NCBI GenBank assembly: GCA_905178155.1
Contig: CAJINV010000001.1
Location: forward strand, 4,878,747-4,942,746
DNA: 64,000 bases
Direction of reading: 5' to 3'
Source: Amoebophrya sp. A120
Lineage: Eukaryota; Protista; Dinoflagellata
This document shows positions 3,530-47,918 of the stretch, in pieces. Position numbers and translations under genes: made by a program. The number at the start of each line of letters is the position of its first letter. Position 1 is the stretch's first letter. Below the pieces are notes generated by a model. The model had not been told where the DNA came from, did no database searches, and saw only the letters and a list, made by a program, of their open reading frames with translations.

Positions 3530-6500
3530 ATGACGTTGGAGAGAAAAGGCCCGGCAGAACCAGGAAACACTTCCTCAGCTGCAACCAGTCCTCAGGAGCA
3601 TGATTTTGCTTATGAATTCAACATTTCTTTTTGTTCATCATCTTCTAGGACTTACATAACAGCAATATGCGGGAGACTTTTTTCCGGCCACCTTGAGAAG
3701 CGCACACGCAATTCTTTTTCTTCATCATCAATGGCAAAAGCGATGAAGCTCGGAGAACCATCTTCACGACGTCCTCAATGCCGCCGCAGTGCTGGCTCTA
3801 AAGCGAACATTCAAAGAACAACGCCTCCGAAAGGAATGAAGTGCAGTGAAAATCGCAACACGTACCTGCGCCGCTTATCGACAGGTCCCCGCTATTCATT
3901 GCAAATATGTCAGGGTTTGGCGCATTACACAGCTTGAGATGCTGCCTTTGGATAATTCTACGAAAAATTGTAATGCATGCGCAGCAAGTGCAAGAGGAGT
4001 CCTGTCCAGCTTTTGCCACGCGGAAGGGGCTTTTGTCATGCGGTAGGGGCACCACGACCACCAGGAAACCCTCACAGAATCTGTGTTGCTAGCGCATGCG
4101 TCCCAGACTCAGACATCATGTAAAATGTGCATGAGAGAGACTCAGACTCATGCAGCGTGGATCGATGCAGAGGGGGACCTGCTCCGGCGACAGGCGCTAT
4201 CCAACCAACCAGCCAAGTTTTGCAATCTTCCAGACCCAAACATGTTTGCAAATGATACCTGTGGTGCAGTGAAACGACAGCACGACCTGCAACATCACCA
4301 CAGATCTACTAGTAGTAAGACCCCTTCGGCTACTAGTTCTGCTTGTGGCGCCCCGTCTCCAACAAGACTGTTTGCGCTCTCCAGCATCTTGAAAGTTGTT
4401 CTGTTTGCGCACCAACTCGTCCTTTTATTCGCGGCTGGCGCAGGAAGCGGCAGCTCCGGAGGAACAAGTCCGCCCTTGTCCAAAATTCCGAGCTTTCTGG
4501 GAAAGAAGCGGAGCAGCACTAAGCAGAGTGATGCGGAAGAAGATGGAGCTACTACTTCTATGCATTGCAAATATGTCTGGGTCTGGAATATTGCAGCTTG
4601 TCATACTAAGTCTGGATCATGCGAAAATCTGTGTTGTATGATTATCAAAAGTTGTAGTTGTCCAGTTTTGATCAGGTTGGGAGGGCGTTTCTCATGCAGG
4701 ATAGGCATGACGTTGATAGAGAAAGAGATCTCACAGCACTTATCATCCTAGGTGCTGCATTCCAGATCTTATCTTATGGGTCATGGAAAACCGGCATGAC
4801 AGATCTTGCATTCTTCCGGATCGAGACAAATTTGCATTTGATAACTTCTTCTGGGACGATGGAGGGGGTCTCCGGCTCCGGCTCCTCCTCTTCCCAAACC
4901 GCCGTCTCTCCCCTCACAGACGCCCCATTGAATGAGTACGGGCATCCGCAGGTCTCGGGAATGGACGTTGACGAGCAAGAGTTCACCTACGGTGTGGAAA
5001 TCCCTAGCACCGAACCCGGCCGCCTGCAGTACCTCCGCAGCATGATGCTGGATGACTTACCGGACCAAGAGATCGAAGAGATCACCAAGGTGTGTCAGGA
5101 AATTTTTCGCGTTCCCATGGTACTGGTCAGCATTGTCGAATCGGAGCGGCAGTGGTTCAAATCAGCTATCGGATTCGGATGCAGCGACACCGCACGGGAG
5201 GTTATTACAATGAAAAATGCCCCCACCCCCGAACTTGGGAGCATTTGTATTGCAAACCTTTCCAAATGAAACACTCCCACTCGCCCTCTTGCATCCATCA
5301 GCATCGCAGGTTTCCAATCATGAATAGCAAAAATTTGTATTGCAAAAGACCCCAGTCCCAGCAAGAGCGGCGCTTGTCATGCAAGCGATGCGATACACGC
5401 CTAGACTCTGCATCAGAAAGATAAAGACTCACACTCCTTTCACGCATGACAAAAAGTTTTTATTTGAAAACTTCGCATCACAAATTTTTGAGATGTCGGC
5501 GCCGTTGTTTTAGCATCACAAATTTTTGAGATGCTCGCGATGTTTTTCGCGGTTCTGACCCTATGCCGTTCCAGCGCCTGCGGAGGCTTGCCTCCCCAGC
5601 GATGATGGACAATGGCAATGTCGGCGCGGTTGTTTTAGCGTCACAAATTTTTGCAGTTTCAGAGGTGGGGGGCATTTTTCACTGTAATAGAGGTGTCATT
5701 TTGCGCACACAGTTTGCTGATGGATTGTCCGGAGATTCTCTACGTCCCGGACGCGACGCAGGACCTATCAAATGCAAAAATGTCTGGGTCTGGATGAGTG
5801 GAACTTGTAATGCTGTCTGCGGATTCTAAAAATATCTGTGTTGCATGAGCAACAAGAGGAGTCAGCTCTTGGCACGCGGAGAGGGCATTTGTCATGCGTA
5901 ATTAGAATCAAGATAGAAGAAAATCTGTGATGCTAGCACCAGCATCACAGACCTGACGGGTCATGCAAAATGTGCATGACAAGCCCCGACTCTTCCAGAC
6001 CCAGACATATTTGCAATCCATAGGACCGGCGTTTTATGTACAACTCCCTGGTGCGTAACGACCCGAAGCTGAGGTTCTATTGCGGTTGCCCCATTATCGT
6101 TGAGGGCGTCCGCCTGGGGGCGTTGTGCATTCTGGACACCATCCCCCGCGTGGACATGACGCAGGAAAAAGCCATGCTCCTGTGCAACTTCGCCGACATC
6201 GTTTCCGCGGCGCTCGCACGCACGAAGAACCGCAGCGAGCACTTTGACATGCTACACAATAGTTGCTTTCTACTGGACTTAGAGCGGGAGCCCGAGCACG
6301 AAATCAAACGGAAGTTGATCATACGCGAAGAGCCGACGCTGAGCCAAAATAGCAACAACGAGAAGGTGGACATAGCCGACCTTTCCAGCGGCGCGCCTCG
6401 GTCCTCGCCGCCCTGGCAGCAGAGCAGCGAACTGCGCGAGAACCCGACTATCGTAGAGAAGTGCAAACGCAACGAAGACGGTGAGATGGTTTGCGCCGAC

Positions 6501-9500
6501 GACGCAGGGAGCGACGGTGAAGGCAAGACGTTTGGTCGCATCTTGTACTCGAACCGGCTGGGAAAACAGCTGGTTGCAGCCTTGACGCCGACAAATGAGG
6601 CGGAGGGCAGCGGAGCCCGGGCAGCAGGTCGGTCCAAGGCAGGCTCGGCCTCGGCGACGTTGCCGGGCGGGGAGCCAATCTGTGGAGCGCCGTTCTCCTG
6701 CTGGATTCCTCCGGGGAGTGCGCATAACAGGCAAGACGAAGAGGTGCATCACTTCTCCGATTTGGTGCACGTTACCGACCACCGAGCGGTCCGCGATGCA
6801 ATCTTCAGCAGGGCGGCGATGCGCAGGTCGTCGGCTGCCAGCGTGGTGGTGTTTCCGGGGACGCGCCGGAATCCCGAGCGCGCTGGCACCGTCTGCTACT
6901 GGCATCCCGCTGCGTTCCAAGCCCGCCCGCACAAGTTCGGCGACAACATGCAAACCGTAGTTTCCTACCCCTACGTGGACACAAACGAGAATGCGGCGCC
7001 GAGACCAAAAGGGAACGAACAAAGCGAAAGCGAGAGCTCTGCGCATCAAGATGACACAGGAACTGCTTCTACTTCCGCGAACAAACAAGACACGTTGAAG
7101 AAAATGGGATCTAGTGTCCCAACTGAATTTGGCAAGAATGGCGAAAAAGTAAGAGGGTTTGTAGTGATAAAGGACTACGACCCCAACAACGATCCCAGCC
7201 TTAGCTTCGAGCGGGCACGACGCAAATATGAAGAAAACGAACAAGAGGCGAGACCACTGTTTCCAGGTGCAGGGCCCAACATCACGCCAATCAGGACCCG
7301 CGGGGACCTGGACTGGTTCCTGAACATTAAGCACAAGGAGAAACGCAAGACCAGTCACAGAGGGCGCAAAAGAGGCAAGCCCGCCCACGATCTTACTGTG
7401 ATAGAAGACTTGGATGCCTCTCCTGAGCAACAACCAAGCGTGGTGGACGACAGATTCTCCATTGCCCCGATAATCAAGGACGGAGATGCCGGCGACCTAT
7501 TGGGGACGGAGAACGCAGAGGTGCGGCGCGAAGCTGGGACTAGTTCTACGACGGAGAGAAACAACGCTACTCCTCTTCTTGATGCCTCGAAAATGGTGAA
7601 GGGCAAGGGGGTTTTGCGGGAACAAAAGGAAAACCGAACGAAAGACGAGCACCTGGCGGAGGGCGAGAAGCCGATACTGTATGTGCTGCTGGTGTCCAGC
7701 AAATTCTGCCAGGCCTGCACGCTGTTTCGCGAATTCTACTGCACCGCGAGCGTGCCGTACAACAGCCACCGCGTCAGCTTCGCGGAAGTGGACGTGGGCC
7801 CTTCCTACGGCCTGGCGCCCTCCCTAGTCGGAGGAAAACCACTTGTGCTTCCGATGCTGCTGTACTTCGACCGGCACGGTACTCTGCTGGGGGATCATCG
7901 GAGCAGGCACCTCGACGTCACCACTGCCTCGGAATTCCGGGGCCAGTTGTCGGACCACATCCAGGATGCCGAAGAACGGGAGACCTTCGAGAAGGAGCAG
8001 GAGGCCAATGGCAAGTTGCCCCCCCGAAAGGTGGTGCCCGACAGCGACGAGTCAGATGACGAGGACGAGGACGACGAATCGGCTCGCTTCTACGCATTGC
8101 AAACATGGCTGGGTCTGGAGACATGCAAATTTGATGTGATCCGCCCTGCGCGTCACACAAAAATCTGTCGTGCATCACTGCCAAAAGATGCTTCGCTTGC
8201 CCACTTTGTTTTGGTCGATTTGAGGCAACGTCTCTCATGCCGGATAGGCATTGTAATTGTAAAGGTTTCCATTGCGCGAAGAGTCTGGTGTAATGCTGCG
8301 CCCTGCATTTATTTTCCAGACCTCAAAGGGCATGCTGGAAAAGCTGCATGAGCATGACAAACATCTACACTCATCCAGACCTCCCAGATATGTTTTGCAT
8401 TTGATAGCTTCGAAAGGGAAAGCCAGGGCCTGAGTGGACCCCCCGGCAACGCAGGGGCACGAGGGCCGACGCCGAGCGGAGGTCTCTGGCGGGCCACTCG
8501 CCCTACACCTGCGAGACAGGCTTTTTTGGGTCCGAGCGAGGAACTACAGCAGCCAGGACGTACAGAGGACACTGGCACTGCAACAAGTGAACCACGGGGC
8601 CAGCAACTGGGCCTGCGAGAGGCCGTTGCTCATGGAGAACCTCCTCCCCTGGCTACTTCGGGGGTTCCGAGCAGTTCCTCCTCATCTACGGTTAACAGCA
8701 AAAATAGTGTGGGTGCAGCGACTGGCACCGGCTCCACTGCGTCCGGCACAAATTATGTTCGACCTCCACAAGGTCAAGGTGCTGCAGGGACAGCAGGACG
8801 AGCAGCAGCTGCAGGAGGAACAATGCAGCTCCCTAGTATAATAAGTCCGTCCAGCCAGACAACTCCGTCTCCGACATCACAGCCGGACGAGAACCGCACG
8901 ACAACAAAACCCGAAAAGAAAACCCTGTCTGGAGCCTTCCTTCGCAGCATCACCTCCTTGGTTCCCGCCCGGATCATGCGACATTCGTCCACCTCGTCCG
9001 TTCGGGGAACACCGCGGACGTCCTCCCATCCAAGGCTCTTCCTCTCGCGATCCTCGTCTGATACTTTACTGAAAAATGGCCCGCCCCCAGAAAAGCGAGC
9101 GGTTTGCACTGCAAGAAAGCTTGTTCTACGATGCACAGTAGTAGTGGGTTTGGTCAGTGGAGAATTCAGCCGCATGAAGATACACACAAAATAATATATT
9201 TAGCGTATATTTATAACTCAGAGCCAGCTGGTCCTCGCGGTCGCGCAGCATGAAGTCAGACGTACTCAGCAGCAGCGATACAGCTTTGCGCTTCTCTGGG
9301 TCGAGAATTTGTGCTGCGGATATGTACTCGCGCAATCACAATTGTTTCCACATCCACTTCGAATCTTCAGCTGCGAACGTTACAGTACTTAATAGCCCTG
9401 ACTTTGTTTTTCTGGTGGGGCGGCATGTTTTGCCTTGATGTCAGGACGAGAAGAGAGTTGCGGGTCCGGTCCCGGTATGGTGGGCGGCAAGAAACCGTGT

Positions 9501-19344: not shown

Positions 19345-19600
19345 CTTGCCCTACCCCTCCCTGGGCCCATGCCCTGCCCCTTCCTGGGCCCAAAGTCTGC
19401 CCCCTCCTGGACCCAGCCCCTGCCCATCCCTGGGCCCAACCCCTGCCCCTTCCTTGGCCCAACCCCTGCCCCTTCCTGGGCCCAACCCCTGCCCCCCCAT
19501 CCCCCTGGGCCCAAACCCTGCCCCTCCATGGGCCCATCCCCTGCCCTCTTTCTGGGCCCAACCCCTGCCCCTCCCGTGGCCCAACCCCTGCCCCTGGGTC
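19345..19600. repeat. GC-rich minisatellite, ~23-bp unit CTGCCCCTTCCTGGGCCCAACCC, about 10 degenerate copies
   Basis: The tandem units are visible directly, and inverted copies recur at ~19975-20095. Confidence 0.9.
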
Positions 19601-21002: not shown

Positions 21003-24000
21003 TCATAGCAAGGCCTCATTTTCAATTCTCCGTGGTGGGTTTGCATTTTTCCTTAGCACGAAGATGCATTCGTCGAAAGTTTCCTCTACCGACGGCGGGA
21101 TGACGTCGATTTGCTGCCAGTTTGCGGTTAGGTATGGCAATCGCTTTTCGCCGTAGATGCGATGCAGGTATGCATTGCAAATATGTCTGTGTCTGGAAGT
21201 GTTCGACTTTGCCAACGTGCGAGATTGATTCGGGTGGCAGAAAAATAAATATGTTTTGCGGGAGCAGTAAAAGCCAATGACAACCAATTTTATTGGGCAC
21301 CCAAGGATGGCATGTTATTCCATGCAGGACAGGCATTGCGGACCCCTCTCAAAACTTGTGGTGCCACGACGGACCGGCATTGCAGATCTTCATCTTCTGG
21401 GCCCCCCTCCTGCGAAAACTACTGCGCACAGATTCAGGTGCAACTGCAACCTTCCAGACCCAGGCATATTATTTGCAGTCGATAGCAGGTTGAAAAGGAC
21501 AATATCCCCGGGCGGCGCGTTTTTCATCAACCGATCCTGCCCACACTTTGCGTTGCGCCACGCAACCGGGTCGTCGGGGTGAAACGAGGTGGCGATGCCT
21601 TTTCTCGCCGCCACGGGTAGGTGCGCCATGACACTGAGGAACAGCAGGCCGTTGTCGCGCGTCAAGCAGTGCGCGCGTGCCGTGGTGAACACGTCCGCCC
21701 AGGGCGAGATGACGTCCCCGTAGCGCCCGAGGCCTGCGTGCTCCAGGCTGGAAAGGGAAATCACAATGTCGAAGGGGCCGCGGGTGTGATCTTGTTTACG
21801 TTTTGCTTTTTGATTTTGCTGAGTTCTACTTTGGCTTTGCGTCTTTGAGTTCATCCTGCTGTTTCTATCATATCGTGCCTGCGCACCAGAAGCTCGATCT
21901 GCGCTGCGATGTTCTCTACTATCCTGTTCCTCGTCATACTCCTTGAACAGCGTGCGACCGTGAAAGAACTCTGCGGGCGTGTAGCACGTGACTTGCGGGT
22001 GCGAGGACTTCATCGGGCGGTATTATTGTGAGGAAAAATGTCCACACAACCGAGACAAGATGGAAAATCTCCTAGACAAATCCACCAGCTATGGCTGCTT
22101 CGCATGACAAGTTTGTCGTCGTAGTGTAATCCTGTTTAGGTAGTTCCGAAGCATCACAGATCTAGCATATCATGCTGAAGCTAGCATCACAAATTCCAAA
22201 ACACAACTAGAAAATGCTTCTTATGGGGCGTCGCATGATAAACTTTTTTGGCATGCAGATTTGCATGACAAATCTGGGGTGGGAACGTTTTTACTCAGAG
22301 TAGGTATTCGATGGTGGTCACGTGGATCTCGTCGCCGAACACGAGCAGCAACAGCGCCTCCACCCACGGGTAGCTACTGCCGACCACCAAGGCCCGGATC
22401 CCCGCCTCCGCGTCTTCCTCGCGGCCCAAGATGTAGTCGCGGTAGTGCTCCAGGCCCCGGTACAGCGCGACCCGCGAGGCGTCTCCGTAGCCAGAGGTGA
22501 ACATCTGGTTGTACACCCCAAGCAGCTCGCCCTTCTTGTCCAGCAGCTCCTCTTCGGTGAGAACCTTGTCCAGTTTATCCTGAGGAAAAACGTACCCACA
22601 CCAGAGTCAAGATGGGGACTTTGCAACACAAACCTAGAACTTTTGGGGGTCACGCATCACAAATTGCAGTCCGTAGTGTAGTGCAGGTTCGCAAGGCCAG
22701 CTGCGTCAGAAATCGATCTGATCATCCTGTTTACAGCATTACAAATTCCAAAACACGACTAAAAATGCCTCTCCTGGCGATGCGCATTACAAACGTTCCT
22801 GTCATTGCAAATCTGCATGACAACTCTGGCGTGGGTACGTTTTTACTCAGGATACAGTTTGTGCGGGCGCCGGCGCGCGTAGTCCACCGCGGCGGCGCGG
22901 ATGCGTATTACAATGAAAAATGCACCCACCCCAGTACTTGGGAGCATTTGTATTGCAAACCTTTCCAAATGAAACATCTGCCCTCTTGCATGTATCAGCA
23001 TCACAGATTTTCAATCGTGAATAGCAAAAATTTGTATTGCAGAAAACCCCAGCAAGAGCGGCGCTTGTCATGCAAGCGATGCGATACACGCGCACGCCTA
23101 GATTCCGCATCAGAAAGATTCCTACTCCTTCCATGCATGACCAAAAGTTTTCATGTGGAGACTTCGCATCACAAATTTTTGCAATTTCAGGGGTGGGGGG
23201 CACTTTTCACTGTAATAATGCGCGGGTCCTGTTCGCTGCATACGGACAGCCGCTGTTCGTAGTCTACGTCGCGTGCGTATGAAAGTGCACAACTTCATCA
23301 ACTCCCCTTCATTTCTTGAACAGCAATACAAACGGCAGCACTGCACAGCAGCAGCACACGTCGTGGAGGCTTTGCATGACAAGTGGATGCGCCTAGTCTT
23401 TTAAGAAGTACAAGTAGTACTGATACTGTTTGGGCTTGCAGAACCTGTCACGCAACTAACAGTGCCGCAAAGCAGCACTTGGATCCGGGATTTTGCAGGA
23501 CAACTGAGGAGGCGGGAGTCAGTTGCTCACTCTCATAGCACGTCGAGGATTTTGTAGTCGCGGTTGGAACTTCTTCGGGGCAGCACTCTATCAGAAGACG
23601 AGCCTGAACCCCTCGGGTTCTTCTTCGCAGCCTCCACCGCCGCCTGCGCGAAGGAGACTGCGCACCGCATCACGGCCACCCAGCCCTCGACGTAGGGCTC
23701 GGTCCATTCCTCCCACAGCATCTTCCCCACGTCAATGTCCTCGCGGAAGACGCTGAGCCCGTCCGTGGCGGCGGCCGTGGTGCTGTGAATGTCCATCACC
23801 TTATTGTCTTCCGTGATCTGGTTCGCGGAGGACAACCGTGTGAACACCGGTGCGTCCCACTGTTTCAAAAAATTCGCAAAGACTACCGGCATCTGCCCGT
23901 TCATCGTGAAGTACGGCAAAAAGCGCCCCGGGACGAAGGTTGCGTAGCTGAGCCCGTGGTCGATTTCGCCGTAGCCCGCGGCGACATCCAGGTCTGCGTT

Positions 24001-24465
24001 GTTCAGCAGCTTTTCGCATTGGAAATGTCCGCGGGTGTGGTTCCAGAACGGGCCGGGGCTGTGCTCGAACTCGCGGTACTCCGGGAAACGCCACTGCAGC
24101 TCGTGCGCGGGTATGCGACGGTACCGCGGGCCGTTGGTTGCGCGGGGGGCCTGCAGCTCGTCGGTTTTGTTTTTTAGGGACCCTTCCTCGTCGTCCATCT
24201 CTTCGACAAACTCGGGCGAAAAGTACTCGGCGCCCTTGTTCTGCATCATGCTCCAACACAGTTCCCCGCAGTCATGGTAGGTTCTCTCCTGGATGAGGTC
24301 CAGTGTCGTGCGGAACCCGTTGCCAAGCACAGTGATCACCAAGAACGACCCGGCGCCGCAAGACGCGATCACACTCCGGAGCAGGTGGGTCGTGCGCAAC
24401 AAGGGGCGGCCGGGGCATGATGGTGGCAAAGTAGTTCTTGGGGCTGCTGATACAAGTGATGTCAT
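21003..24465 (-). CDS. DUF268-family (class I methyltransferase-like) protein, ~663 aa, with an N-terminal hydrophobic segment and 5 introners
   Basis: Rebuilt motifs ALVVGSSYPWVEA..VTTIEY..FDIVISLSSLEHAGLGRYGD..FNLHRIYGEKRLP; 3463-1471=1992 nt, a multiple of 3. Confidence 0.85.
21169..21484. mobile_element. Introner, family A
   Basis: Perfect DR GCAGG; removal restores FNLHRIYG. Confidence 0.93.
22024..22302. mobile_element. Introner, family C
   Basis: Perfect DR GGTAT; homologous to 22576-22854 and 29551-29837. Confidence 0.9.
22576..22854. mobile_element. Introner, family C
   Basis: 32-bp TIR with 2 mismatches (TATCCTGAG.AAAAACGTACCCAC.CCAGAGT); perfect DR CAGTT. Confidence 0.95.
22906..23217. 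mobile_element. Introner, family B
   Basis: TATTACAATGAAAAATGC ... GCACTTTTCACTGTAATA; perfect DR ATGCG. Confidence 0.95.
23278..23537. mobile_element. Degenerate introner
   Basis: TATGAAAGTGCACAACT ... AGTTGCTCACTCTCATA; DR GTGCG/GCACG; frame restored. Confidence 0.75.
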
Positions 24466-27900: not shown

Positions 27901-30139
27901 GACGCCAAGCTCCCCGAGTGCACAAATGATCCCGCTCAGGTCCATTTCGTGGGCGGAGACCAAAAGCTTGCAAAACGCGCGCCGGTGCTCGGGGGAAACG
28001 CGTTTTACCAATCCGAAATCCAGCAGAATCGGTTTTTTCGTTCCCTTTTCCACGAGCAGGTTTCCCGGGTGCGGGTCGCCGTTGAAAATTCCGTCGACAA
28101 AGATTTGCTGCGCGAACGCCGCCGAAATGTCTTCCACGAGCTTGTGACAGTCCACGTTCCAGGCTTCGTATCAAATGCAAAATTGTCTGGGACTGGAAGA
28201 TTGGGATTGCGAAATTTGTCATGCTTGTCTGGCATGACCAAAAAGTTTGTGATTCGTGTCCAAGAAGAGACCCTTTTGCCTGTCATGCAAAGACGCAGTT
28301 TGTTATGCGAAAAACGCAACACACAGAAGCGCAGATATTTCTCATGCTTGGCTGTGCATTACAGAGCATGCACTATTCCCAACGCAGCATTACAAGCTTC
28401 CAGACCGAGACATATTTGCATTTGATACTTCCAGCGTCTCTTTCTCCGTCGGCTTGACGCCCTCAATGTATTCGAGGAGGATCACGGATCGCGTGGGTTC
28501 GGTTGAGATTTCAACAATGTGGTCCTCTTCTTCGTGCTGTTGTTGTGTTGAGATGTCAGTCTCGTCCTGTACTCCGCGTAGGAAGTCGTCAAGCTGCACC
28601 TCCGCGTCGCCGGACGTTGTGCGCGAGGACGCCGCCGAAGAGGACGACGTGGTGGCGGGTGTTTGTGTAGTTGTTGTGTCTTCGTCCAGTGCAGTGGCAT
28701 AGCTGGACGCCGCACTGGTCCGCGAGCTTCTCCTGGCATCATGACCAGCTCCACCTCCATTGGATATTAAGGACGACGAGGATGTTATTTTACTCGACCG
28801 TCTCACCTTCAAGACATCCCTTGAAAATGTGGAAGACACCACGGCCCGCGGACCCGGACCAAAGCAGGAGGAGGTCGTCGTAGATTTCCTCCTTCTTCTC
28901 CACTGCTGCTGCGTCAGACCGGCCGCGCCGTTGTCGAGAAAGCCTTCTAGCCCGACCAAGTGTTTCCTCGGCACCGAGAATCTGCGAATGACTTCCGGCA
29001 CGCCGGTCAAGTGCGCGACTTTGCTGTTCTGGAGGTTCCGGCCGACCGTCTCGGTGTTCACCGCTTCCTGGTAGAAGTCCACTTCTTTCCGCGTTTCTGC
29101 CGCCCACTCCTCATACAGAACGCGAAAATCGTACTGGGGCTTCTCCTCGGCCAGCGACTCCACGAGGTATTTCGCGTTATCCAGATCCTGCTCGATCACT
29201 GCCTCGATGTTTTGGTGCTGCACCTTGACGACGACTTTCTGGAAGTTGAGCAGAACCGCGGTGTGCACCTGCGCGATGCTGGCCGTCGCGAGCGGTTTTT
29301 CCGTTATAGACCGAAACGGCCACTGGTGCGGGAAAGCGGCGCGGAGCGTTTCCTCCACTTCCGAGTAGGGCTTCGGTGGTAATGAGTCCTGCAGATTTTT
29401 CAGCACCCGGATCCAGGGGAGCGGGAGCACGTCCGCCCGCGTGCTCATCATCTGCCCCAGTTTCACCCACAGCCCCTCGAGCTTGATCATCTGCTCGTAC
29501 ACCAGCGTGGCACAGCGCGTGTGCACGTCTTCCCAGATCGCGTTCTGCTCTATCCTATGTAAAAACGTCCCCACACCCATAGTCAAGATGGGGAATCGGC
29601 TAGACAAATCCACAAGCTTTGGCTGTTTTGCATGACAAATTTGGACTCGTAGCGTAGTGCTGTTTGACGTAGTTCAGTAGCATCACAGATCTAGTATATC
29701 ATGCTGCTTGGAGCATGACAAACTCCACAACACGACTAGAAAATGCTTCTCATGGGGCGCCGCATTAGAAACCTTTTCAGCATGCAGACTTGCATTACAA
29801 GTACAACTATGGTGTGGGGACATTTTTCAATACGATATGCTCCGGGCTGTAGTCTTCGAACTTCTTGGACTCCTCTTCCGCGTTCGTGTACTGCCGTTTC
29901 ACGTACCAGGCAACGGCGTACACGCGCAGTCTTCGGCCGAAAAGCCCGGTTTTGTAGATGCCGCGGCTGAACAATCGAGCCAGGGAGGCGAAGGGCAAGG
30001 CCATAATGTCAAAAACGCCGGACGGGCTGGTATCGTGGTCTGCGTCCTCTCGTGACTCCTCGTCTCTCGGGGACGGCGTCCAAGAACTTACCGGACCCAC
30101 GTTTCGATCAGAGAAGTCTTCACTGCGAGAAGTAGTCAT
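24973..30139 (-). CDS. ABC1/ADCK (UbiB) atypical kinase fused to a serine beta-lactamase/PBP-like domain, ~1447 aa, 3 introners
   Basis: Kinase motifs GLWVKLGQMMSTRADVLP, PLATASIAQVH, VVVKVQH, FNGDPHPGN and LLDFG. Lactamase-like FSCSK (SxxK), LTIRDVLEHRSGL and YHAITYG. 5167-823=4344 nt. Confidence 0.9.
26779..27040. mobile_element. Introner, family A, young copy (262 bp)
   Basis: Near-perfect ~36-bp TIR TATCAAATGTAAAA.TGTCTGGGTCTGGAAGAATGC; perfect DR TCGAT; near-identical to 45616-45877. Confidence 0.96.
28169..28427. mobile_element. Introner, family A
   Basis: TATCAAATGCAAAATTGTCTGG ... GACATATTTGCATTTGATA; DR CTTCG/CTTCC. Confidence 0.92.
29551..29837. mobile_element. Introner, family C
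   Basis: TATCCTATGTAAAAACGTCCCCACACC ... GGTGTGGGGACATTTTTCAATACGATA; perfect DR TGCTC. Confidence 0.95.
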
Positions 30140-37583: not shown

Positions 37584-38184
37584 ACTTAGATAGTGTTAGT
37601 GTACAAGAAAAATTCCAAATACGTATGTAGATGCTTTTCCAACTTCAAAAAAATCCAAAAAGCCCGGCCTGTCCCTACTTATTCTTTGAAACTGAAATCA
37701 GGACACGAGCTGATTCATATACTTATCATCTCTGCGAAGGTTAAAAGAAGACAGACTTATTTTGCGCCGTGTGTAGTGGCTTATGTCACCGACGTAGAAC
37801 GATCAAACGAGTCTTTGACGAACCACGACATCATTTCCGCCCACGACCTAGAGCGAAATGTTTCACATAAAATTCAGATGACGAGAGGAGGGTAGGAAAA
37901 TAGATGACCGATTCTCATTTACGACATTTGTTGCAACTACATGTAGCACGCACTCCCGCAATCGATCTTTGAAGCAAGTGCAAGACCATGAAGAACGACG
38001 TGTGAATATTGTATCTGCAGGCGTAGTGGGTGTGGGAGAGCCGGTGTGTTCTGCTGCCCCGAAGAGCATCGGTCGCTTTGTACATTTGCTTGACATCGGT
38101 ATCTATTTTCGATCATTGTGGAAACTTCTCGTCTAGACACACAGCTTTTATTCGTTTTCCTCGTATATTACATAATAGGTACAA

Positions 38185-39821
38185 TTACAGAGAAACGTGC
38201 GGATTGGCAATTTCCAGGGATGCAGGCATGCTTGTACAGCCTGCTGGCGCGGTTTGCGTAATCCGGCCGTTGTCCCGAAATTCCAAAACCAGGGAGCACT
38301 GCATGTCGTCTGCGGGCGTCTGCAACATCGGACTAGCCACGACAACGTGCTGAATTCCGGTCGCTTCGTCCGGCAAATGTTGGTACCGATGGCGATGTAT
38401 CCTGTGCAAAAGTATCGTACTTGTACTAATTGCTTTTATGCATATGTCCTTAAGGTAAAACAGCATGACAAATTCCAGCTCTCACGCTGAGTAAATTTGT
38501 AATGCATTTATACGAGTACGATACTTTTGCAGTTCATACGATGTCCGCCATAGACGGCCACCACGATTTGCTTGAATCCGGCTAAAATTTGCCTGGCCCT
38601 GTCGCTGTCCCAGGCCAGGGTGCGCCAGCCGCCGTCTTTCCGGTCCGGGTTGTGCATGATGGGCACGTGCGTGAATATATCAAAATGAAAAATCCCCCCT
38701 CCCCATATTGAAACGGAAACCTCTGTTGCTGGATTTGTGTACACAAATCAGCCCTGTCTTGCAGCGAGGCACTACAGGCAAAGCCTCAGCCTGCGTAGGG
38801 GTGTTTTGTTGTAGGCGCTTGGCATAAGAGAGGCCTGCCATGTAGGTGAAACAGCATTACAAATCGCCTCCATAAGGCGGCGTATTCTTTGGGCTTGCCT
38901 TCTTGCAAGACAGACGAGGCGATTTGTGACCTCAAATCCGCAACACAAATTTTTGGAAACATACCTTTTCGATATGGGGAGGGGGGATTTTTCCTCTCAA
39001 TAGAATACGACGACGAACTGCTGGTTTTCCCTCGCTTTTCCCAATTCCGCCTCCAGCCACTGCAGCTGCGTTGCCCCAAACGCGCCGTTGTACAGGCAAA
39101 ACCGCTGCTTTTCCAGAGGGACGCCCTTAAAGTAGTCGATCTTCTTCTCCGGGTGCTCCAGTGCCTCCACCATCATCGGGTTTTCCCTTCGCAGCAACTC
39201 TTTGGCCTCCAACAGCTTCGGGTGCGTTGGTGGGGAATTTATTTCGTTGGTGGTACTAGTCTTGTGCACGTCGCCGTAGCCGAGACTCGAAACGACGTAG
39301 CTGTCCAGCATGATTAACCGCCATTTTCTGTCCGCAACTTCACAGCTGTAGTAGAGTGAGCCGTGCGCTGCGTCGGGCGTGTTAGTGTCCGCCCCATGAT
39401 GCCAGACATTCTCCCGCCACCAGGAACGGGACCCGCAGTAGAGCTCGTGGTTGCCAACGATGTCAAAACGGTAGGGACGTTTCAGATTATTAGTGGTTCT
39501 ACTTGCAACGTCGTCCTGCTTCCTCTTATCTTCGTCATTGTTGTTTTCTGGTGGAATTGAACTCGTAAACCCAGCGTCCAGCGCGTCTATGACGCGTTTT
39601 GTTGCTGTTTCCGTGTGGTCCACTGCCTTTCCGTCGATAATGTCGCCAAGCTGGATGATCGCGTGGCAAGAAGAAAAATCCGTTCTCCTGCTCACGTCCA
39701 GCGCGTTGCGGTAATACCGCGTCTCGGTTTTGGCAAAATCACTGCCATCCTCCACGTCCGCATACTGAATGTCGGCGATTACCCCGAGCTTGCGGATGGT
39801 CGAGTTGTCGAAAGAAGCCAT
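38185..39821 (-). CDS. Metallophosphoesterase, Mn-dependent ADP-ribose/CDP-alcohol diphosphatase (ADPRM)-like, ~386 aa, 2 introners
   Basis: GVIADIQYAD, RYYRNAL, QLGDIIDG and GNHEL, plus rebuilt FTHVP and GHRH; 1637-476=1161 nt. Confidence 0.88.
38398..38538. mobile_element. Short introner (141 bp) with a distinct TIR
   Basis: TAT....TGCAAAAGTATCGTACT.GTA inverted at both ends; perfect DR CGATG; splits the GHxH metal-binding motif. Confidence 0.92.
38678..39002. mobile_element. Introner with a family B-related TIR
   Basis: GAAAAATCCCCCCTCCCCATAT inverted at both ends; perfect DR GAATA. Confidence 0.92.
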
Positions 39822-40801
39822 TGTATTGACCTATGCTATCTAAGTACAGCTTCAGCTTATTTCTACTAGTGACGATTTTCGATTTCGTTCGAGATACGCG
39901 AGCGATATAATCGTGTGATTAAATAGCAAGGCCGTCGTACTCACAGAGTCATCGATCTTCTGCGGACGATGCATCCATTCTGATGACATGCTGTGCAGTG
40001 CACGGTGCGCCGAAACAAGACATGACCTGGCAATAAATATGAGGTGCGGAAGAGTAATAGCAAAAACCACGTGACTAGTGCGCCTTACGTCGTCGATGCA
40101 GCTTTATTACAACGCGGATTGTCCGCTCTATATGTACAAGAGTACCAGTACTATCTATTTCTATTTGAGTACTTAGTTGTTTTAGATCCTCGAATGATCA
40201 GCGAAACAGAGCGCAATAATTCCAGAAGAAATGTACTCTACACGAACAAGAAAGAGTTGTGGACGTCGACGTTCTCGTTTTTACGTGTGTGCTCCGCGCA
40301 TTCCTTTCCCTCAACGCTCGCCTCGTCCTATCAGGCAGAGGTCTAGTAGAAAACCGACCCTACTTACTACTCGTCCTCCCGTGTTGGTGTTCGTGTTCCT
40401 CGCTTTCGTGGCATATTACCAGGGAGTACAAAATGTAGATTCGAACCGAACAAATAGCGCACCAACACACTGTAGGTGGAAGACGAAGAAGAAGTTTACT
40501 TAGGTGTCATCTTCGCACTGTATCAGCATGGTGCGACAGGCCATTGATGATTTTCGCAATCGCTGGTCGGGCGCAAGTAGAATGACTGTGTGACTACATG
40601 TTGTCCTATGTCTGCTCTGCATGACTGGGTATCTCTATGGTGAAGTGATATCTCAATCTTAAGCTATGTTTTAGTTTTCATGGGTAGCTGCGCTGGTAAC
40701 CCTAAGATTGATTCTTTGGAGAAGCAGAAGGTCTGGGTGGTCTGGTGGGAGGAAAAAACCATGAGGAGTATATTTTTCCCTTTCGTATGCGAACTTATTT
40801 T

Positions 40802-42550
40802 TTACGTTGCGCCGTGGTTTGTAATCGCTCCACTGCTGGTAGATACCGACACGGCGTTCGACGACCGTCCAAAGCAGGGAAACAGACAACTGAACAGCCA
40901 CCTTCGCCTGCCGGTCGGGTCAAAGGTACCGTAGGAGAGCCCGTCCTGCGCCGCGTCGGTCCGCACGCCCTGGAAACGCACGTAGCGCAGCCCACGAATC
41001 GTGACGCGTACGTCGCCCGCAGCACTGGGCACGCCGACGTTGTCCAGTTTCACCAAGGTTGCCCGTCCGCCAGGGCGCGGATACTCCTGTGTCGACAGAA
41101 ACTCGCCCTCCACCGCTACTACGCGAATCAGATGTGTACAGTACCGGGGTTCCACCAAGCGCAGTGTGGCGGTGTTGCCGGGTCGCGGAAGGGTGACGTA
41201 TTCCCGGGGGATGTGCAGGACGGGCAGCTCGCGAATGTATTGCGCATTTGTGCTATTTCCCGCGAATGTGGAGCTGCCACGTCCTTGACCGGCGCTGCCT
41301 CTACCTCCAGCAGCGCCCACCGGACTGAGAGAAATGATGCTACCCCCTGACGAGCTGTTTCTGTTTCTCCCGTCTCCTGCCGACATGGCTAGAATCGCGT
41401 CGAAGCAGTGCCGCAGCTCCCACGCTGCTGCGTCGAAGGCGCGACCCGATCGGGGGGGCTGGTCCGAAAATTTCCGCACGACGTTGGTCAACATGCGGAT
41501 TTCGGTGGTCTGCTGGTCCGGCGAGGGGGCGTCGCGCGCGTACATGGAGACAATGGTCCGGCCCACCGTGAAGTAGAGTTGGAAGCACGCCGGAATGTCT
41601 CCTCTGTTGTACAGCGGCGCGCCGCGGTGGATGGCCTCCTGCAGCAAGAATTGCACCGCGGACAGATTCCGGGCGCTGGCGCTATTACTGTCCCCCGGGC
41701 TCCCCCCCGAGGACGTGTTGAAAAACCCACCGCCACCGCCGCCCTGCGGATTGGCGCTGCGGTGGATGATGGTCGTCGCACCGCCGGCCTCGCCATCCGC
41801 TCCGCCGCCGGGGTTCGCCATGCGAATCACCGTCGTACCGCGCGGCCCGGCTTCCTCCGGGGTGGAGACCGCGACTTTTGCGTACCACAGCCCCTCGCTG
41901 TTCTGCTCTACCCAACAGGTCTGGAGCTGGACCCGCTCCAGCGCCTTCCCGACGATGTTCGCGCGCCCGTCCGGTAGAAACTGGGCCATTCCGATCTCCA
42001 CGACCACAGCCCGGTCGCCCGCGGTCAAGGGCTCCTTCTTGCAGCACAAAAACCGGCGGTTCCCCTCCCACGCGCGCCGGATCAGCACGCGGTAGCGCGG
42101 CTCGAAAAAGTGCAGCTGCACCTGGCTCCCCGGATTGTAGTCCTCGGTACCACCGTACACGAACACCGGCAACTTCTGCGCTTCCCGGTCGCGCCATTCC
42201 TGCAGCTGCTCAAGGTGCTCCTTCTTGCGCGCTTCGTAAACGTCCACCGGGACGACGTCAACTTGCTCATCTCCCGTGTCTACCGGCACTTTCAGCAGCA
42301 AAACCTTGTTCTTCAATCGCGTATCGACGGCGTGCGTCGCGGGATCTTGTATGTCCTCGATCGTTTTCCGGCACTGCGGGCAGCTGCGCCCGTCGGGCGC
42401 GAGGGTGGTACTTTGCAACAAACAGAGCCGGCAAAAGCTGTGGTTGCACTGCAGGGTCAGGGGCTCGCAAAGAAAGTCCAAGCAGATCGGGCATTGAAGC
42501 CCCTCCTGGGCGAGGATCGTCGTCGCTTCCTTACTCCCTATGCGTTGCAT
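40802..42550 (-). CDS. LON peptidase N-terminal domain and RING finger protein (LONRF-like E3 ligase), 582 aa
   Basis: C3HC4 RING CPICLDFLCEPLTLQCNHSFCRLC..CPQC. LON-N LPVF..LHFFEPRYRVLIRRA..PDGRANI, and a second degenerate LON-N (LPVLH..LRLVEPRY). Confidence 0.88.
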   Translation of the reverse strand: MQRIGSKEATTILAQEGLQCPICLDFLCEPLTLQCNHSFCRLCLLQSTTLAPDGRSCPQCRKTIEDIQDPATHAVDTRLKNKVLLLKVPVDTGDEQVDVVPVDVYEARKKEHLEQLQEWRDREAQKLPVFVYGGTEDYNPGSQVQLHFFEPRYRVLIRRAWEGNRRFLCCKKEPLTAGDRAVVVEIGMAQFLPDGRANIVGKALERVQLQTCWVEQNSEGLWYAKVAVSTPEEAGPRGTTVIRMANPGGGADGEAGGATTIIHRSANPQGGGGGGFFNTSSGGSPGDSNSASARNLSAVQFLLQEAIHRGAPLYNRGDIPACFQLYFTVGRTIVSMYARDAPSPDQQTTEIRMLTNVVRKFSDQPPRSGRAFDAAAWELRHCFDAILAMSAGDGRNRNSSSGGSIISLSPVGAAGGRGSAGQGRGSSTFAGNSTNAQYIRELPVLHIPREYVTLPRPGNTATLRLVEPRYCTHLIRVVAVEGEFLSTQEYPRPGGRATLVKLDNVGVPSAAGDVRVTIRGLRYVRFQGVRTDAAQDGLSYGTFDPTGRRRWLFSCLFPCFGRSSNAVSVSTSSGAITNHGAT

Positions 42551-44105
42551 GATCGAGTAGATCTGCTGGGGCTCGATGACTATGTTGTATCGAGATGGAT
42601 GCTGTTCATCTCCATCTCAGAAGAAACTCTCTAGAAGATCCTGGAACATTTATGAAACCTTTGATTTTTGAACTCGGCTTCGGAGAAGTCGAAGTGCACA
42701 TAATCAGGAAGACCTCCTCCGACGCCATGATTTAAGGCTCTACATCTACTTTGCGCAAAAAAATTGCAATCCCACATTGTCTTTCGATCACGAAGCATGC
42801 ACGATGATGAGAATGGCTAGTGGTAATGAAGAAAATAGCGAATGTGCCGCGACTTGCATATTGTGATCATCATCCTTGCTTGTAGGCACCACGGGAATAA
42901 ATCATCACAAGAATAAAGACCTGTGATATGGTTTCCTGGGGATCCATCAGCATCACGAATTGGAATTACTAACTATACCCTCAAGAACTAGTATCGTGAT
43001 CTTCACCGATTGCAGGGTTTCACAGCTACAGTATCCTCCGGACGCGCTCACCGAGAATGAAAAACACCGACTGTTACTTTCTTGGCAAAGAGAGTCGAGT
43101 AGACTTTTTGCTTGTCGTCGAGCAGCATCATAGACACAAAAATCACAGAACCAATTTGGGCCAGTACATGGAGAAATGAACAAAAACTGAACAGACCGTC
43201 ACTGGGTCTCCAGCAGGAGAGGCACATGGGATACAACAGGCTCTACCAAGCAAACAGCGCTGCAAAATGCAGAACCGATGCTACTGTTCTACTTCTATCG
43301 ATCCGATCTATTTCAGAATTTGTTTTTCTCCCAACTGCGTGAACGTGATAGTCATCAACAAATGTTAATCTATCTAATGTATTGCGACAATCTCGGGTTT
43401 AATGAAGAAAGAGGCTCTGCGTTTTGCTCAAATACTATCCGCGGCTACGTGATGGTGGTTTAACCACAATCGTACTTCCCTTTCGTTCCGAGCGGAATCA
43501 GGCTGTAGCTGCTTGTTTTTCCAAAGAAATCATGTCTTCACTGCTCCTCACGGCCAGCAGAATCAGTACAAAAAGGCAGTAATCGAAAGACTGTAGCAGC
43601 ATGAAGGTGGTAGTCCATCGCTAGCGTGTGATGTCAACACAGCGCTGTAGAAAACATGATGGAATTACCTACTTAAGGTGGAAGCTATTGACAGCAATCT
43701 AGGCTGAATGGGCAAGCGCCGAGCTCGATCTTGTCAGACAACATATTGATGACACAGCTGCGGACGAGGCGAAAAACAATTTATAGAAATCGCGAATGTT
43801 GCGGGGGGAACACAAGACAAGCTGAATCTGTATTCTCGAAATTATAAAGCAAAAGAGGGACCCTAACCCTGAAACGCGAGCAAAGCCAAAAACCCTATCG
43901 GCGTCGGCGTGGCTGGATCCTGGAGAAGTGCGGAGCGGTAAGTAAAACAAGCACTAAGGGACCAAGCACAAATCCACTTAAACTAACTTTATTCTCCACG
44001 GTGCATATTTGCTGAAGCAGAAGAGCATGTTGGAGGTTTTGGAAAATTATCATTATGTATAATGATAGGTACCACCCAGATACACGAGAAAGAGCGTAAA
44101 GTGCA

Positions 44106-47100
44106 TCATGGGAATTCCGCCGTCTCCTCGTGGAACAGATGTAGGAAATCCACAATAGATTTCAAATTTTGAACCAACAGGTTAACCCGCCGCTCTTTCA
44201 GCGGTCCCTTCGGCCAGTAGAAGTCCAGCAGTGCCAGGGCGTAGAGGTCGCCCAGGACCTTGACGTGTTCGTAAAACTTGACGCGGGCACGCAGCATCAT
44301 ATCTCCCACAAGGTCCAACTCTTGCACGGAGAGGTGTGGAGAAAGCACAATGGGTGGGGAGGCGCCAACTTCAACCGTTTTCGCGGTTGTAGCCTTATTC
44401 TTCTTGTTTCTATCTTTACACGTGCAGCCACAGTAGGCTGGCTTTTTCGCGGAAGGCAGGCTGCTCGACCGCTGTGCGGGCTTAGCGTTGAACACCGTGC
44501 AGGTTGACGCTGGTGCGGTTGAAGAGGATGCTGTTGGTGCACTACTACTTCCAAGCTGGGCTTGTTCGCTGTAGGTCTGCTTCCGGTGGACCAGCTTTCT
44601 TGCCGCTGCACTGCTGTTGGTTGTTTCCGCAGAAGATCTGTCACCGCCTACGCCCTGTGCTGGTGACGACGCATTTGCAAGACAGTTTTTCGCCGCGCAT
44701 GTTGAAAGTGAGACACCGGCAGAGTTTGAACAATTATCTCGCCCACTCGCTGCGACGTTATTGATTTCTGCTTCTGCGTGATTGCTCTTCTCAGCTGTGT
44801 GAAGAAACAAAAACCGGAGAAGCTGCTGCCGCTGCACCGTACGGCGAAAGAGCTCCCGCTTCGCGGTTTGGCAGTGCATCCGCTGCCATTCGCGACAGTG
44901 CTGGTGGTATGCCGCGCCGTTCGGCTCGCTGGAGGCCGTCAGCATGGTGGTATCAAAAACGCGCGGGTAGACTTTTGGTGTGCGCTGCGTGACCTCAAAC
45001 GAGCCGTCTTCAATCTGAAATCGACGATGGAGATCTCCGTCTTGATCATGCGAGCCACCACCTGGACGAGAGGAACTGCTTCTCCTTGTGCTGTCTAGTG
45101 CTGTTGGGGTCGGCTGCTCGACCTCTCGCGCATGGGTGTTGAAAACGTTCCCGACGCATTTTTCCTGGCTGTTGTCGTTGTAGCGCTGTAGAAAATTTAT
45201 GTGTTCCAGGGCGGTCAGGTGCCGGGCAGTCAACACTCGCATGTCGCCGTCGAGAAACTCACACGTCAGCCCCGCAGCGCCCGGGCTGCTTCCCAACTGG
45301 TCCTGTATTTTTTTACAAATTTTCGCGCTCGAACATTGTTGTTTTACAGTACTGCACTAGTTTTGAATTAGTATGCCTGCGATAATCTTCGTTAGCACAT
45401 TCTTTGGCTCAGTAAGCATGTAGTCACAATATTGAATTTCGCAAGAAGTGGTCCAGTAGCGTACTATGCGTAGTTGTACCAGCCACGCCTTTCCTCCCCT
45501 CGATTCTGGACAATTGCAGCCAATGACGCTGAAAGGCAACGGCGGAAGGTCAACGGTCACCCAGGCGGGATTCGTATTCGTGTCGTGCTTCCGCACGTTG
45601 CCTATTCGGTGTCGATATGAAATGTAAAAATGTCTGGGTCTGGAAGAATTCGCGATTTGTGATGCAGCTTTTCCATGACCCATGAGGTCTGGAATGCAGG
45701 ACCGAGCATGACAGATTCTGTGCGATCTCTCTCATGCCTATCCTGCATGAGAAACACCCTCCCGACTTGGTCAAAACTGGACGACTTTTGGTAATCATGC
45801 AACACAGCTTTATGCATGCTTCAGATTTAGCATGACAAGTTGCATTCTTCCAGACCCAGACATTTTTACATTTGATAGTCGAATCTCGTCTCGCCACCTC
45901 GGAATGGAGAGCACGATCTCGCCCAGGCCCTGCTGAATTTATATTGGTTTGGAACATAGAAGTATTAGCCTAAGTGTACGTAGTACTTCAAGTTCAGTTC
46001 GTATAGGCCGCTTACAAGAAACTCTGTATCAATATAGGTTTTCCGTTTTCTTTCACCTCCATCGACAACGTGCCGTGCTTTGCACAGTCGATAAATGATA
46101 TCTCTTACCCGGTCCAGCACCGGAGGCGAGGCGAGTAGCACTTCTTCCGATGGCGGCCGCCAGCGTCGCATCAAAGCGGCACTCTGCGACGCGAAGGGGT
46201 TCGAGGGTTGGAAGCTCATCCGACTCGCGGCGCCGCAAACCGCGGTGTTGAGTACGTTGGGCAGGTCGGGGCGCTGTGCGGCGTCCGGACTGAGGACGCG
46301 GTAGCTTTGCAGCAGCTCCACGCCGTTGGCGTACTTGTTGATCCACATGGGCTGGAACAAAGCAGAAACACTCTGCGGATTCTTCGTCTCCGTCAACGCG
46401 CGGATGCCGATTTTGAGGAAATCCGGCTCGTCGCCGGGGACCAGGGGTGGCCCGCCCGTGACCGCAGAGACTCGGTTCCGCTGCTCCGCATGAAGACGGC
46501 GCTTGTCGATCTGCACTGCGAGGGCTGATTGTTTTTTAGTACCCGAGTTGTGGTCCCCGACAAAGGCGGACGTCGCACTGGTGCCATCGTATTTTAATGT
46601 TGTCCTCGTGCTGCTAGTTCCAACACCAGGAGATGAAGCTCCTGCTCCGTGGTCATCTACAGGTTTCTCTTCTTGGCCCGCACGATAAACCGATGCAGGC
46701 GCTTTCTTCTTTGTTTTCCTTTTCTGTTCCTCCTTACCCTTGTTCTGAGGTGAAGAAGAAGGACCAGAGGGACTCGATGAAATTCGTAGGTTTTCCATCA
46801 TCTTCACCAACTCCTGCTCTTTTACCTGGTTTTCAAAGTCGATGTTTTGGTGCCCGCGCAACAGCGGAAAGATCGGCTTCTGCCGTGAGGCGTTCGTCGG
46901 ACCTCGTTCTGGTGGACCAGCTGGTTTGTCTTTTTTCATTGCACAATTGCCGTGTTGGTGATCCTGATCTGCCCCCGGCGCACGAAGATTGTGATCTACT
47001 TTATCAAACCGGGACCGGCACTGGGTTGTCCAATACTTTTGCCGCCAGGGATCGTTTTCGTCTGCCGTTTCGGGGTGCCAGGAATGACTCTTCCGATCTG

Positions 47101-47918
47101 CCGCGTGCGCCCGCATCTTTTCCACGTAGCTGAACCCGCTTTCTGCTTTCAGGAACCCGGTCTTCGTGTGATAAAACGGATTATCATCGCTGAAGACCGC
47201 GCGCCCGAACAACTTCTTCGCAATATTACAATGAAAAATGCCCCCACCCCCGAACTTGGGAGCATTTGCATTGCAAACCTTTCCAAGTGAAACATTCGCC
47301 CGCTTGCATCTATCAGCATCACAGATTTCCGATCGTGAATAGCAAACATTTGTGTTGCAAAAGATCCCAGCAAGAGCGGCACTTGTCATGCAAGCGTTGC
47401 GAAACACACCGAGACTCTGCATCAGAAAGGTTCGCACTCCTTTCATACATGACAAAAAGTTTTCATTTGGAAACTTTGCATCACAAATTTTTGCAACTTT
47501 GGGGGTGGGGGTATTTTTCCTCGCGATACGCAATGCGGTCGACCAGCGGGGGGAGCAGTTCGGTGAGCCACACGAACACGCCCTCCTTCACCGACCCCGG
47601 GGTCAAACCGACCCAGAGGTCGCGTTCCGCCAGCGACACAAAGCCGTGGCCCAGCCACAGCTGAAACGCGTCCTTTCCGGAGGCAGCAGTGGTCTTGTCC
47701 GTCCACAGTTCCCGGGTGTAGTGGTCCGTGAGGGCGCTTTCCGTGATGGCGGTCAGCGGTCTGCTTGTTCCACTGCTCGTCCTCTGCATCGAATCTACTT
47801 GTTCCCGTCTCTCCATCGGCATTGGCAAGGCCGGACGGGGGTTGTAATTGCCGTCTTCTGCAGCGGCCGCTTGGGGTGCAAGCCCAATTCGCATGCTGAT
47901 GTTCAAAAATGTTCCCAT
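44106..47918 (-). CDS. Hypothetical protein with 2 introners and 2 GT-AG introns (45303-45479, 45933-45979); may be the 3' part of the 48087-51923 gene
   Basis: In-frame joins VDRIA|KKLFG, LKYY|QGLGE, DEIR|HRIGN and KAWL|DQLGS. No domain recognised; start uncertain. Confidence 0.65.
45616..45877. mobile_element. Introner, family A, young copy (262 bp)
   Basis: Perfect DR GTCGA; about 11 substitutions against 26779-27040 by manual count. Confidence 0.96.
47224..47528. mobile_element. Introner, family B
   Basis: Perfect DR CGCAA; homologous to 5203 and 22906. Confidence 0.95.

What the first reader, a model, noticed from the sequence alone, without database searches (positions are those of the whole stretch)
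5203..47528. Family B introner is present in both orientations relative to transcription
Seen: copies at 5203, 22906 and 47224 all read TATTACAATGAAAAATGC..CTTGGGAGCATTTG on the plus strand, but the first host gene is plus-strand and the other two are minus-strand. All three restore the frame by the same rule. Established: spliceosomal and group I/II introns are strand-polar. Inference: recognition depends on the symmetric TIR stem, or removal happens at DNA level. Caveat: the 5203 copy also has a fortuitous GT-AG register from its DR.
Basis: partly seen in the sequence, partly recalled or inferred. Interest (0 to 1): 0.72.

Follow-up and report, generated by a model that had tools for sequence, protein, structure and literature searches.

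The report
Reversible GT-AG-free introns of Amoebophrya
These are copies of the already published transposon-like introns of the plankton parasite Amoebophrya; they sit in genes facing either way about equally often and without the usual GT-AG splice signals, likely because each end carries the same signal that the RNA-splicing machinery reads, which narrows the open question of how such introns are removed.

Summary
Observation confirmed. The three copies are one family, co-oriented on +, in a plus-strand GAF gene and two minus-strand genes. Published Amoebophrya A120 gene models remove all three as element + 5 nt, and likely-RNA contigs skip B3 exactly (3 of 4 runs). Families A and X behave alike; GT-AG registers are at chance level (6 sense, 7 antisense of 106). 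DNA-level excision is unlikely. 'Stem' is not the only reading: signals duplicated in the inverted ends suffice. A weak transcript-polar skew at the third terminal base (9:1) hints at a relaxed spliceosome with a branch A. The intron class is published (Farhat 2021). Two-way introners are known in Polarella, with canonical-type sites. Two-way behaviour without GT-AG was not found in five searches. This scan noted these introns and a '1+4' cut before on other DNA of this genome.

The parts
5203..5689 (+). B1, family B introner (contains a ~180-nt internal expansion), B1 orientation relative to its plus-strand host
5198..5202 (+). B1 left 5-nt direct repeat (right copy 5690-5694); gives a chance GT-AG register 5201-5692
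3530..9059 (+). 5' part of B1 host gene (GAF-domain protein, A120 model P0002), interrupted by A1, A2, B1, A3, A4
22906..23217 (-). B2, family B introner, opposite orientation relative to transcription; direct repeats 22901-22905 and 23218-23222; no GT-AG register
21006..24465 (-). B2 host gene (DUF268 protein, A120 model P0001), interrupted by B2, C6, C5, A5 and one further intron
47224..47528 (-). B3, family B introner, same orientation class as B2; one diverged end; direct repeats 47219-47223 and 47529-47533; skipped as 310 nt in RNA-like contigs
44109..51923 (-). B3 host region (A120 models P0014, partial, and P0005; likely one gene), also holds A8
38678..39002 (-). B4, distant B-like element with similar ends; skipped as 330 nt in 4 of 4 RNA-like runs; orientation versus B1-B3 only weakly assignable
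28169..28427 (-). A7, family A introner inside an ABC1 kinase domain; antisense to A9 relative to transcription; no GT-AG register
57705..57960 (-). A9, family A introner; skipped as 261 nt in 4 of 4 RNA-like runs; reads GT..AG only on the untranscribed strand
21169..21484 (-). A5, family A introner antisense to A2/A6/A8 relative to transcription; removed in model P0001; no GT-AG register
45616..45877 (-). A8, family A introner; skipped as 267 nt in 4 of 4 RNA-like runs
38398..38538 (-). X1, short introner; skipped as 146 nt in 4 of 4 RNA-like runs

Best explanation
Family B is a transposon-like introner of Amoebophrya A120 that sits in exons in either direction and is likely cut from the pre-mRNA by a relaxed U2-type spliceosome reading signals that the inverted ends supply identically on both strands. 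Shown: TAT...ATA ends, 5-nt duplication, removal of element plus exactly 5 nt, both orientations, no need for GT-AG, no base preference in the duplication. Inferred: insertion by a DNA transposase blind to transcription; removal at RNA level; a fixed cut one base before and four after the element (taken from earlier notes, only partly tested here), so that the 5' end would read N-U-A like the G-U-A of this genome's ordinary introns; the first A of the terminal AUA would be the branch point about 7 nt before the 3' cut; the hairpin would help bring the ends together. RNA-level, orientation-blind removal alone I put at about 0.9; the spliceosome-and-branch-point step is the uncertain part.
For: Orientation about 1:1: family B 12:10 over window plus loci (p 0.83); A6-type 10:7, X 6:5, A7-type 2:2 among 83 callable of 117 elements in 36 loci. 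0 of 9 B1-oriented locus copies has GT-AG, 1 has GA-AG. An A120 model protein reads straight across one of them (25 of 27 residues). GT-AG registers: 6 sense, 7 antisense of 106, 4.2 expected. All 5 elements in the laid stretch are skipped as element + 5 in RNA-like contigs; the contigs holding B3, A8 and A9 also skip ordinary introns. 8 of 8 recoverable ordinary introns begin GTA and end CAG, while B1's GT-AG register reads GTT..GAG. Third terminal base deviates at the transcript's 5' end in 8 of 106 and at the 3' end in 0 of 106 (p 0.007, uncorrected), across several families. Two imperfect repeats need a cut at or after repeat position 2, which fits 1+4. A120 keeps U2, U4, U5, U6 and nearly all spliceosomal proteins but no detected U1 (PMC7789003 section 10).
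Against: No lariat, branch or knock-down data. The third-base skew is post hoc, one of 20 positions tested. Of two deviating elements added later one goes against it (L040:87-409) and one fits, giving 9:1 (p 0.02). The 1+4 register was not fixed here, and a branch point 7 nt from the cut is very short (my knowledge). Euglena introns with a similar symmetric code are proposed to use non-spliceosomal factors (PMC12501133, passages). RNA support is contigs from two samples of one study whose RNA status is a guess; B1, B2 and all locus copies lack direct RNA. The B1 gene model is imprecise at two other junctions and has an 89% paralog whose transcripts might have shaped it.
Confidence: 0.52

Rival explanations
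1. A dedicated non-spliceosomal endonuclease and ligase recognises the RNA hairpin formed by the inverted ends and cuts at fixed distances from its base, as proposed for euglenid nonconventional introns.
For: B2 folds into a long end-to-end stem in both orientations (z -5.6 and -4.4). End pairs 1-2 and 11-13 are almost always Watson-Crick. No GT, AG or flank preference. U1 undetected. Euglena code is a symmetric motif with asymmetric spacers (PMC12501133 abstract).
Against: No G-U over A-C excess on the transcribed strand (115:103); end-duplex energies do not differ by strand (10 versus 12 of 23, p 0.78). At pair 3 the C-A mismatch is tolerated (7 of 106) and the U-G wobble is not seen in that set. 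B3 and A9 have several stem mismatches yet are skipped. End complementarity is expected from transposon origin alone.
Confidence: 0.35
2. The elements are excised from DNA (transposase-like, or like ciliate internal eliminated sequences) before transcription.
For: TA...TA ends and orientation blindness fit a DNA-level process; removal of one duplication copy equals precise excision.
Against: DNA contigs at single-copy depth (about 27-30) cross element borders of A5, C5 and C7 with 49 nt or more inside and no differences, and run 25 nt into B2. No element + 5 skip is among the 15 joints shown (372 hidden; contigs drop rare variants). The transcript-polar skew at base 3 would not arise from a transcription-blind DNA cut.
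Confidence: 0.04
3. The skips are reverse-transcriptase jumps across a hairpin between short direct repeats, and the host genes are actually disrupted.
For: Hairpin plus direct repeat is the classic setting for such artefacts (recalled; one search gave no paper that I read).
Against: All 5 elements laid are absent from the main contig path, and retention would leave a B1 frame of only 49+73 codons instead of 351+972. GAF and ABC1 domains span elements. Elements with 2-3 mismatches in the repeat are also removed at the right length in model P0002.
Confidence: 0.03
4. Both orientations are spliced but with unequal efficiency, or some families have a preferred direction.
For: Family C is 6 of 6 in one direction in the window; Polarella classes all show a bias.
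Against: The 4 callable C copies in the loci are all in the other direction; B is 12:10. Efficiency could not be measured from contigs.
Confidence: 0.15

Closest known systems
Introner elements (IEs) among the non-canonical introns of Amoebophrya sp. A120 (Farhat et al. 2021, PMC7789003; sections 10-12, 16, passages, supplement part 3 of 5)
   Same: Same organism label on the host proteins; inverted repeats starting TAT + 7 variable + AAA; 3-5 nt direct repeats; repeated families; non-GT-AG ends; about 240 nt.
   Different: The paper's text uses 'orientation' only for genes. It does not report two-way insertion, chance-level GT-AG registers or a 5'/3' skew. Its figures were not visible to me.
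Two-way introner-like elements of Polarella glacialis classes 1, 2, 3, 6, 7, 8, 10 and of Aureococcus (bioRxiv 2020.10.14.339549, passages; Huff 2016 not held, known only through that citation)
   Same: Inverted-repeat DNA transposons with target duplications create introns in either orientation.
   Different: Those use GT/GC/GA 5' sites recruited from the duplication or element end (and, as I recall, AG 3' sites), so target sequence is constrained and one orientation is favoured. Here the duplication has flat composition and no canonical site is needed.
Euglenid nonconventional introns (PMC12501133 abstract and passages; PMC11282704 section 6)
   Same: Non-GT-AG ends, inverted repeats, direct repeats that blur the junction, a symmetric motif at unequal distances from the two cuts.
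   Different: Motif is CAG/CTG-type with a purine starting the next exon; excised as circles; not shown here. No such flank preference here.
IS3EU/GingerRoot DNA transposons (PMC10045372, passages) as a lead for the mobiliser
   Same: TA..TA termini; integrase-related transposase, and Gozashti 2025 (PMC12130899, passages) reports integrase-like homology in an A120 introner family.
   Different: Their duplications are usually 6 bp, here 5; no transposase was sought or found.

Membership tests
Amoebophrya A120 introner elements | Inverted repeat TAT + 7 nt + AAA at both ends | tested here: met
   B1-B3 and 106 pooled elements: T1, A2, A11-13 at 101-106 of 106 per end; motif in PMC7789003 section 11
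Amoebophrya A120 introner elements | 3-5 nt direct repeat at the exon-intron boundary | tested here: met
   perfect 5-nt repeats at B1-B3; 87 of 109 perfect in loci
Amoebophrya A120 introner elements | Repeated family | tested here: met
   3 copies in window, 23 in 36 loci
Amoebophrya A120 introner elements | Removed from RNA without GT-AG | tested here: met
   B3 skipped in 3 of 4 RNA-like runs; B1, B2 by gene models only
Amoebophrya A120 introner elements | Occurs in strain A120 | tested here: met
   host proteins 100% identical to A120 models
Polarella/Aureococcus-type two-way introners | Intron formed in either orientation | tested here: met
   12:10
Polarella/Aureococcus-type two-way introners | Canonical-type splice sites recruited from duplication or element end | tested here: not met
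   GT-AG 6, GC-AG 3, GA-AG 7 of 106 on the sense strand
U2 spliceosomal intron | GT/GC-AG ends | tested here: not met
   B1's register differs from the GTA..CAG of 8 of 8 ordinary introns
U2 spliceosomal intron | Branch adenosine and lariat | not testable with these tools
   only an indirect skew at the terminal A
Euglenid nonconventional intron | CDG...CHG code with purine after the 3' cut | tested here: not met
   ends are TAT...ATA; flank composition flat
Euglenid nonconventional intron | Excision as a circle | not testable with these tools
   no raw reads covered the genes
IS3EU/GingerRoot non-autonomous transposon | TA..TA termini | tested here: met
   PMC10045372
IS3EU/GingerRoot non-autonomous transposon | 6-bp target duplication | tested here: not met
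   5 nt; RNA skips equal element + 5
IS3EU/GingerRoot non-autonomous transposon | Cognate transposase in the genome | not testable with these tools
   no whole genome held

The most novel reading that the evidence does not exclude
Amoebophrya has a U1-less spliceosome that ignores GT-AG and reads a palindromic code at the element ends (N-U-A at the 5' cut, the terminal AUA adenosine as branch point 7 nt before an arbitrary 3' cut). Any copy, at any site and in either direction, is then a perfect intron, which makes a whole transposon class invisible to coding selection.
Probability: 0.25. Interest if true: 0.85.

Novelty: already known. Interest (0 to 1): 0.45.

Why it matters
How Amoebophrya removes the 60-65% of its introns that lack GT-AG is an open question (PMC7789003 section 16). 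Two-way, target-blind behaviour confines the essential signals to the ~15 symmetric end bases and the hairpin, and excludes polar signals in the interior. Because insertion is blind to transcription, every 5'-versus-3' asymmetry measured on the transcript isolates what the splicing machine reads from what the transposase reads. That test can be run on about 30,000 published copies. It also warns that aligners will assign the wrong strand to copies like A9.

Tried and rejected
No whole genome is held, and the locus records could not be extended, so no genome-wide count. Run search: no RNA holder listed on record. Raw RNA runs X9-X11 laid only 2, 45 and 32 partial reads, on repeats: no evidence either way. 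The uncovered stretch 52157-54824 is not used as evidence. Homolog search for the B3 downstream exon found nothing in the near-length range; it was found later. Viral contigs: 0 matches. 4 of 40 metagenome loci (L003, L011, L035, L037; 30% GC, no family B element) were dropped; 34 of 117 elements failed the strand-call threshold. G-U versus A-C and duplex-energy tests for RNA pairing were null. Branch-like motifs were not strand-biased. 7 of 8 annotated gaps gave no in-frame GT-AG and were left out of the ordinary-intron set. 7 of 10 locus ORFs were not in the protein collection. At L017 the A120 protein confirms the strand but not the upstream flank, so that copy's frame restoration is unverified. 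Dataset S2 of PMC12130899 had no hit for the organism name; its other tables were not read. Huff 2016 was not held. One search used a C1 end one base too far; corrected from then on.

Full report
Observation. They are 84-86% identical over about 290 nt, co-oriented on +, with TAT...ATA inverted ends and perfect 5-nt direct repeats. The window holds 23 elements with this grammar, curated (20 recovered by a separate profile scan). Removing each element plus 5 nt gives long stop-free frames: 1323 codons on + through B1, 361 on - through B2, 592 on - through B3, 1460 on - through A6, A7 and C7. For B1 and B3, of 0-7 extra bases only 2 or 5 joins both sides.

Organism and hosts. Host proteins are 100% identical to Amoebophrya sp. 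A120 gene models. Mapped back, P0002 (+, GAF domain across the site) omits B1, P0001 (-) omits B2 and P0014 (-) omits B3, each as element + 5. The end motif equals the A120 introner motif of Farhat et al. (PMC7789003 section 11). On host strands and with the ends trimmed, B1 is antisense to B2 and B3 (z 85, 81).

RNA. Four contig sets guessed to be RNA (two samples, one study) were laid on 38150-58140. All 5 elements there are skipped as element + 5: B3 in 3 of 4 runs; X1, B4, A8 and A9 in 4 of 4. The same sets skip seven ordinary introns that read CT..AC on +. Those introns share contig depth values with the B3, A8 and A9 joints, which fixes those hosts on the minus strand. B1 and B2 were not covered by usable RNA: raw runs X9-X11 did not reach the exons.

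Is the reverse orientation rescued by GT-AG? Within the window only B1 of 23 has a GT-AG register, so the window cannot answer for family B. It does for family A: A7 and A9 are antisense to each other on the transcript (z 31), and A5 is antisense to A2, A6 and A8 (z 10-12); none has GT-AG; A9 and A8 are skipped in RNA contigs and A5 in a gene model. For more copies I scanned metagenome contigs with the family B end: 40 loci, 36 kept, carrying the same families at up to about 90% identity in what looks like a sister strain (96-97% protein identity to A120). A codon model plus frame length called the host strand. Leaving each gene out of training, it matched 23 of 23 window labels, two by a slim margin; the X1 and B4 labels rest on frame length, so that check is partly circular. 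83 of 117 elements passed the threshold. Family B: 9 B2-like and 9 B1-like of 18, 10:9 after one more became callable, of 23 copies. None of the 9 B1-like copies has a GT-AG register; one has GA-AG. An A120 model protein reads across one of them, L032:1717-2022, at 25 of 27 residues; whether A120 itself carries that copy is unknown. A second, L017, confirms strand only. Other families: A6-type 10:7, X 6:5, A7-type 2:2, B4-type 4:1, C 0:4 (6:0 in the window). Opposite copies of one family share one frame in L022, L024, L025, L028 and L034. Pooled over 106 elements, GT-AG registers number 6 on the sense and 7 on the antisense strand against 4.2 expected, and repeat composition is flat.

DNA or RNA. 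DNA contigs of run X1, at single-copy depth, cross the borders of A5, C5 and C7 with at least 49 nt inside and reach 25 nt into B2 without differences. No exact skip is among 15 joints shown of 387. With the RNA-like skips this makes DNA excision unlikely, though rare variants would be hidden.

Mechanism. The ends are inverted repeats, so whatever is read within them exists on both strands; orientation blindness shows only that no polar signal in the interior is needed. B2 folds end-to-end either way, but tests for selection on RNA pairing were null (G-U 115, A-C 103; energies). One polar signal appeared: base 3 departs from T at the transcript's 5' end in 8 of 106 elements and at the 3' end in 0 of 106 (p 0.007, uncorrected among 20 positions). 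The 3 departures at bases 1-2 are all at the 3' end. Two later deviating elements split one for, one against (9:1, p 0.02). Ordinary introns here start GTA and end CAG (8 of 8 recoverable). Earlier unreviewed notes of this scan propose a cut one base before and four after the element; my two informative imperfect repeats only require a cut at or after position 2. If 1+4 holds, the 5' end reads N-U-A like G-U-A, and the protected 3' A lies 7 nt before the cut, a candidate branch point (inference). With U2, U4, U5, U6 present and U1 undetected, I favour a relaxed spliceosome (0.52) over a hairpin-cutting enzyme (0.35).

Comparison. The elements are members of the published A120 class. Two-way introners are described in Polarella and Aureococcus but use canonical-type sites. 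Euglenid introns are the nearest functional analogue. Five searches and term look-ups in PMC7789003 with its supplement, PMC9860276, PMC12130899 with two of 14 supplements, PMC11282704, PMC11453091, PMC12621601 and PMC13326754 found no statement that Amoebophrya introners work in both orientations. Figures, the other supplements and subscription papers were not seen.

Verdict. Interest 0.45.

Noticed in passing
window 3893-4257 and 10574-10947: At two elements with degenerate direct repeats, the A120 model P0002 has junction residues that no cut register of the window DNA gives but that match the paralog P0003. Probably an annotation artefact from paralog transcripts; RNA-level correction not excluded.
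   Followed up: partly
window 19264-20322: 1059-nt element with short inverted ends, a perfect 8-nt direct repeat, 23-nt GC-rich tandem arrays and a 108-nt inner inverted repeat, between convergent gene blocks; a different, hAT-like or Merlin-like (recalled labels) transposon.
   Followed up: no
window 57705-57960: A9 reads GT..AG on the untranscribed strand and is labelled so by the read tool, while its contig's other introns are CT..AC; a likely source of wrong strand calls and of 'CT-AC' introns in Table S4.
   Followed up: partly
window 44109-51923: Two A120 models (P0014 partial, P0005) lie in one frame joined by an open stretch and are probably one gene.
   Followed up: partly
window 24976-30178: 1460-codon minus-strand frame fusing an ABC1 kinase domain and a beta-lactamase-like domain, split by three introners.
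   Followed up: no
window 47224-47528: Family B has a stop-free frame on the B2-like strand; at least eight database proteins contain translated element sequence, probably gene-calling artefacts.
   Followed up: partly
window 22392-23055, 26376-27039, 38328-38991: Summed DNA contig depth over elements is 1500-7000 times single-copy depth; a rough sign of very many copies, not a copy number.
   Followed up: no
L001-L040 (36 loci from contigs prefixed JACKZZ01): A sister genome shares the A120 introner families, useful for presence/absence comparison, although the families were described as strain-specific between A25 and A120.
   Followed up: partly
window 16114 and 16525, 30411, 1-122: Unpaired element-like ends: degenerate, nested or cut-off elements.
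   Followed up: partly
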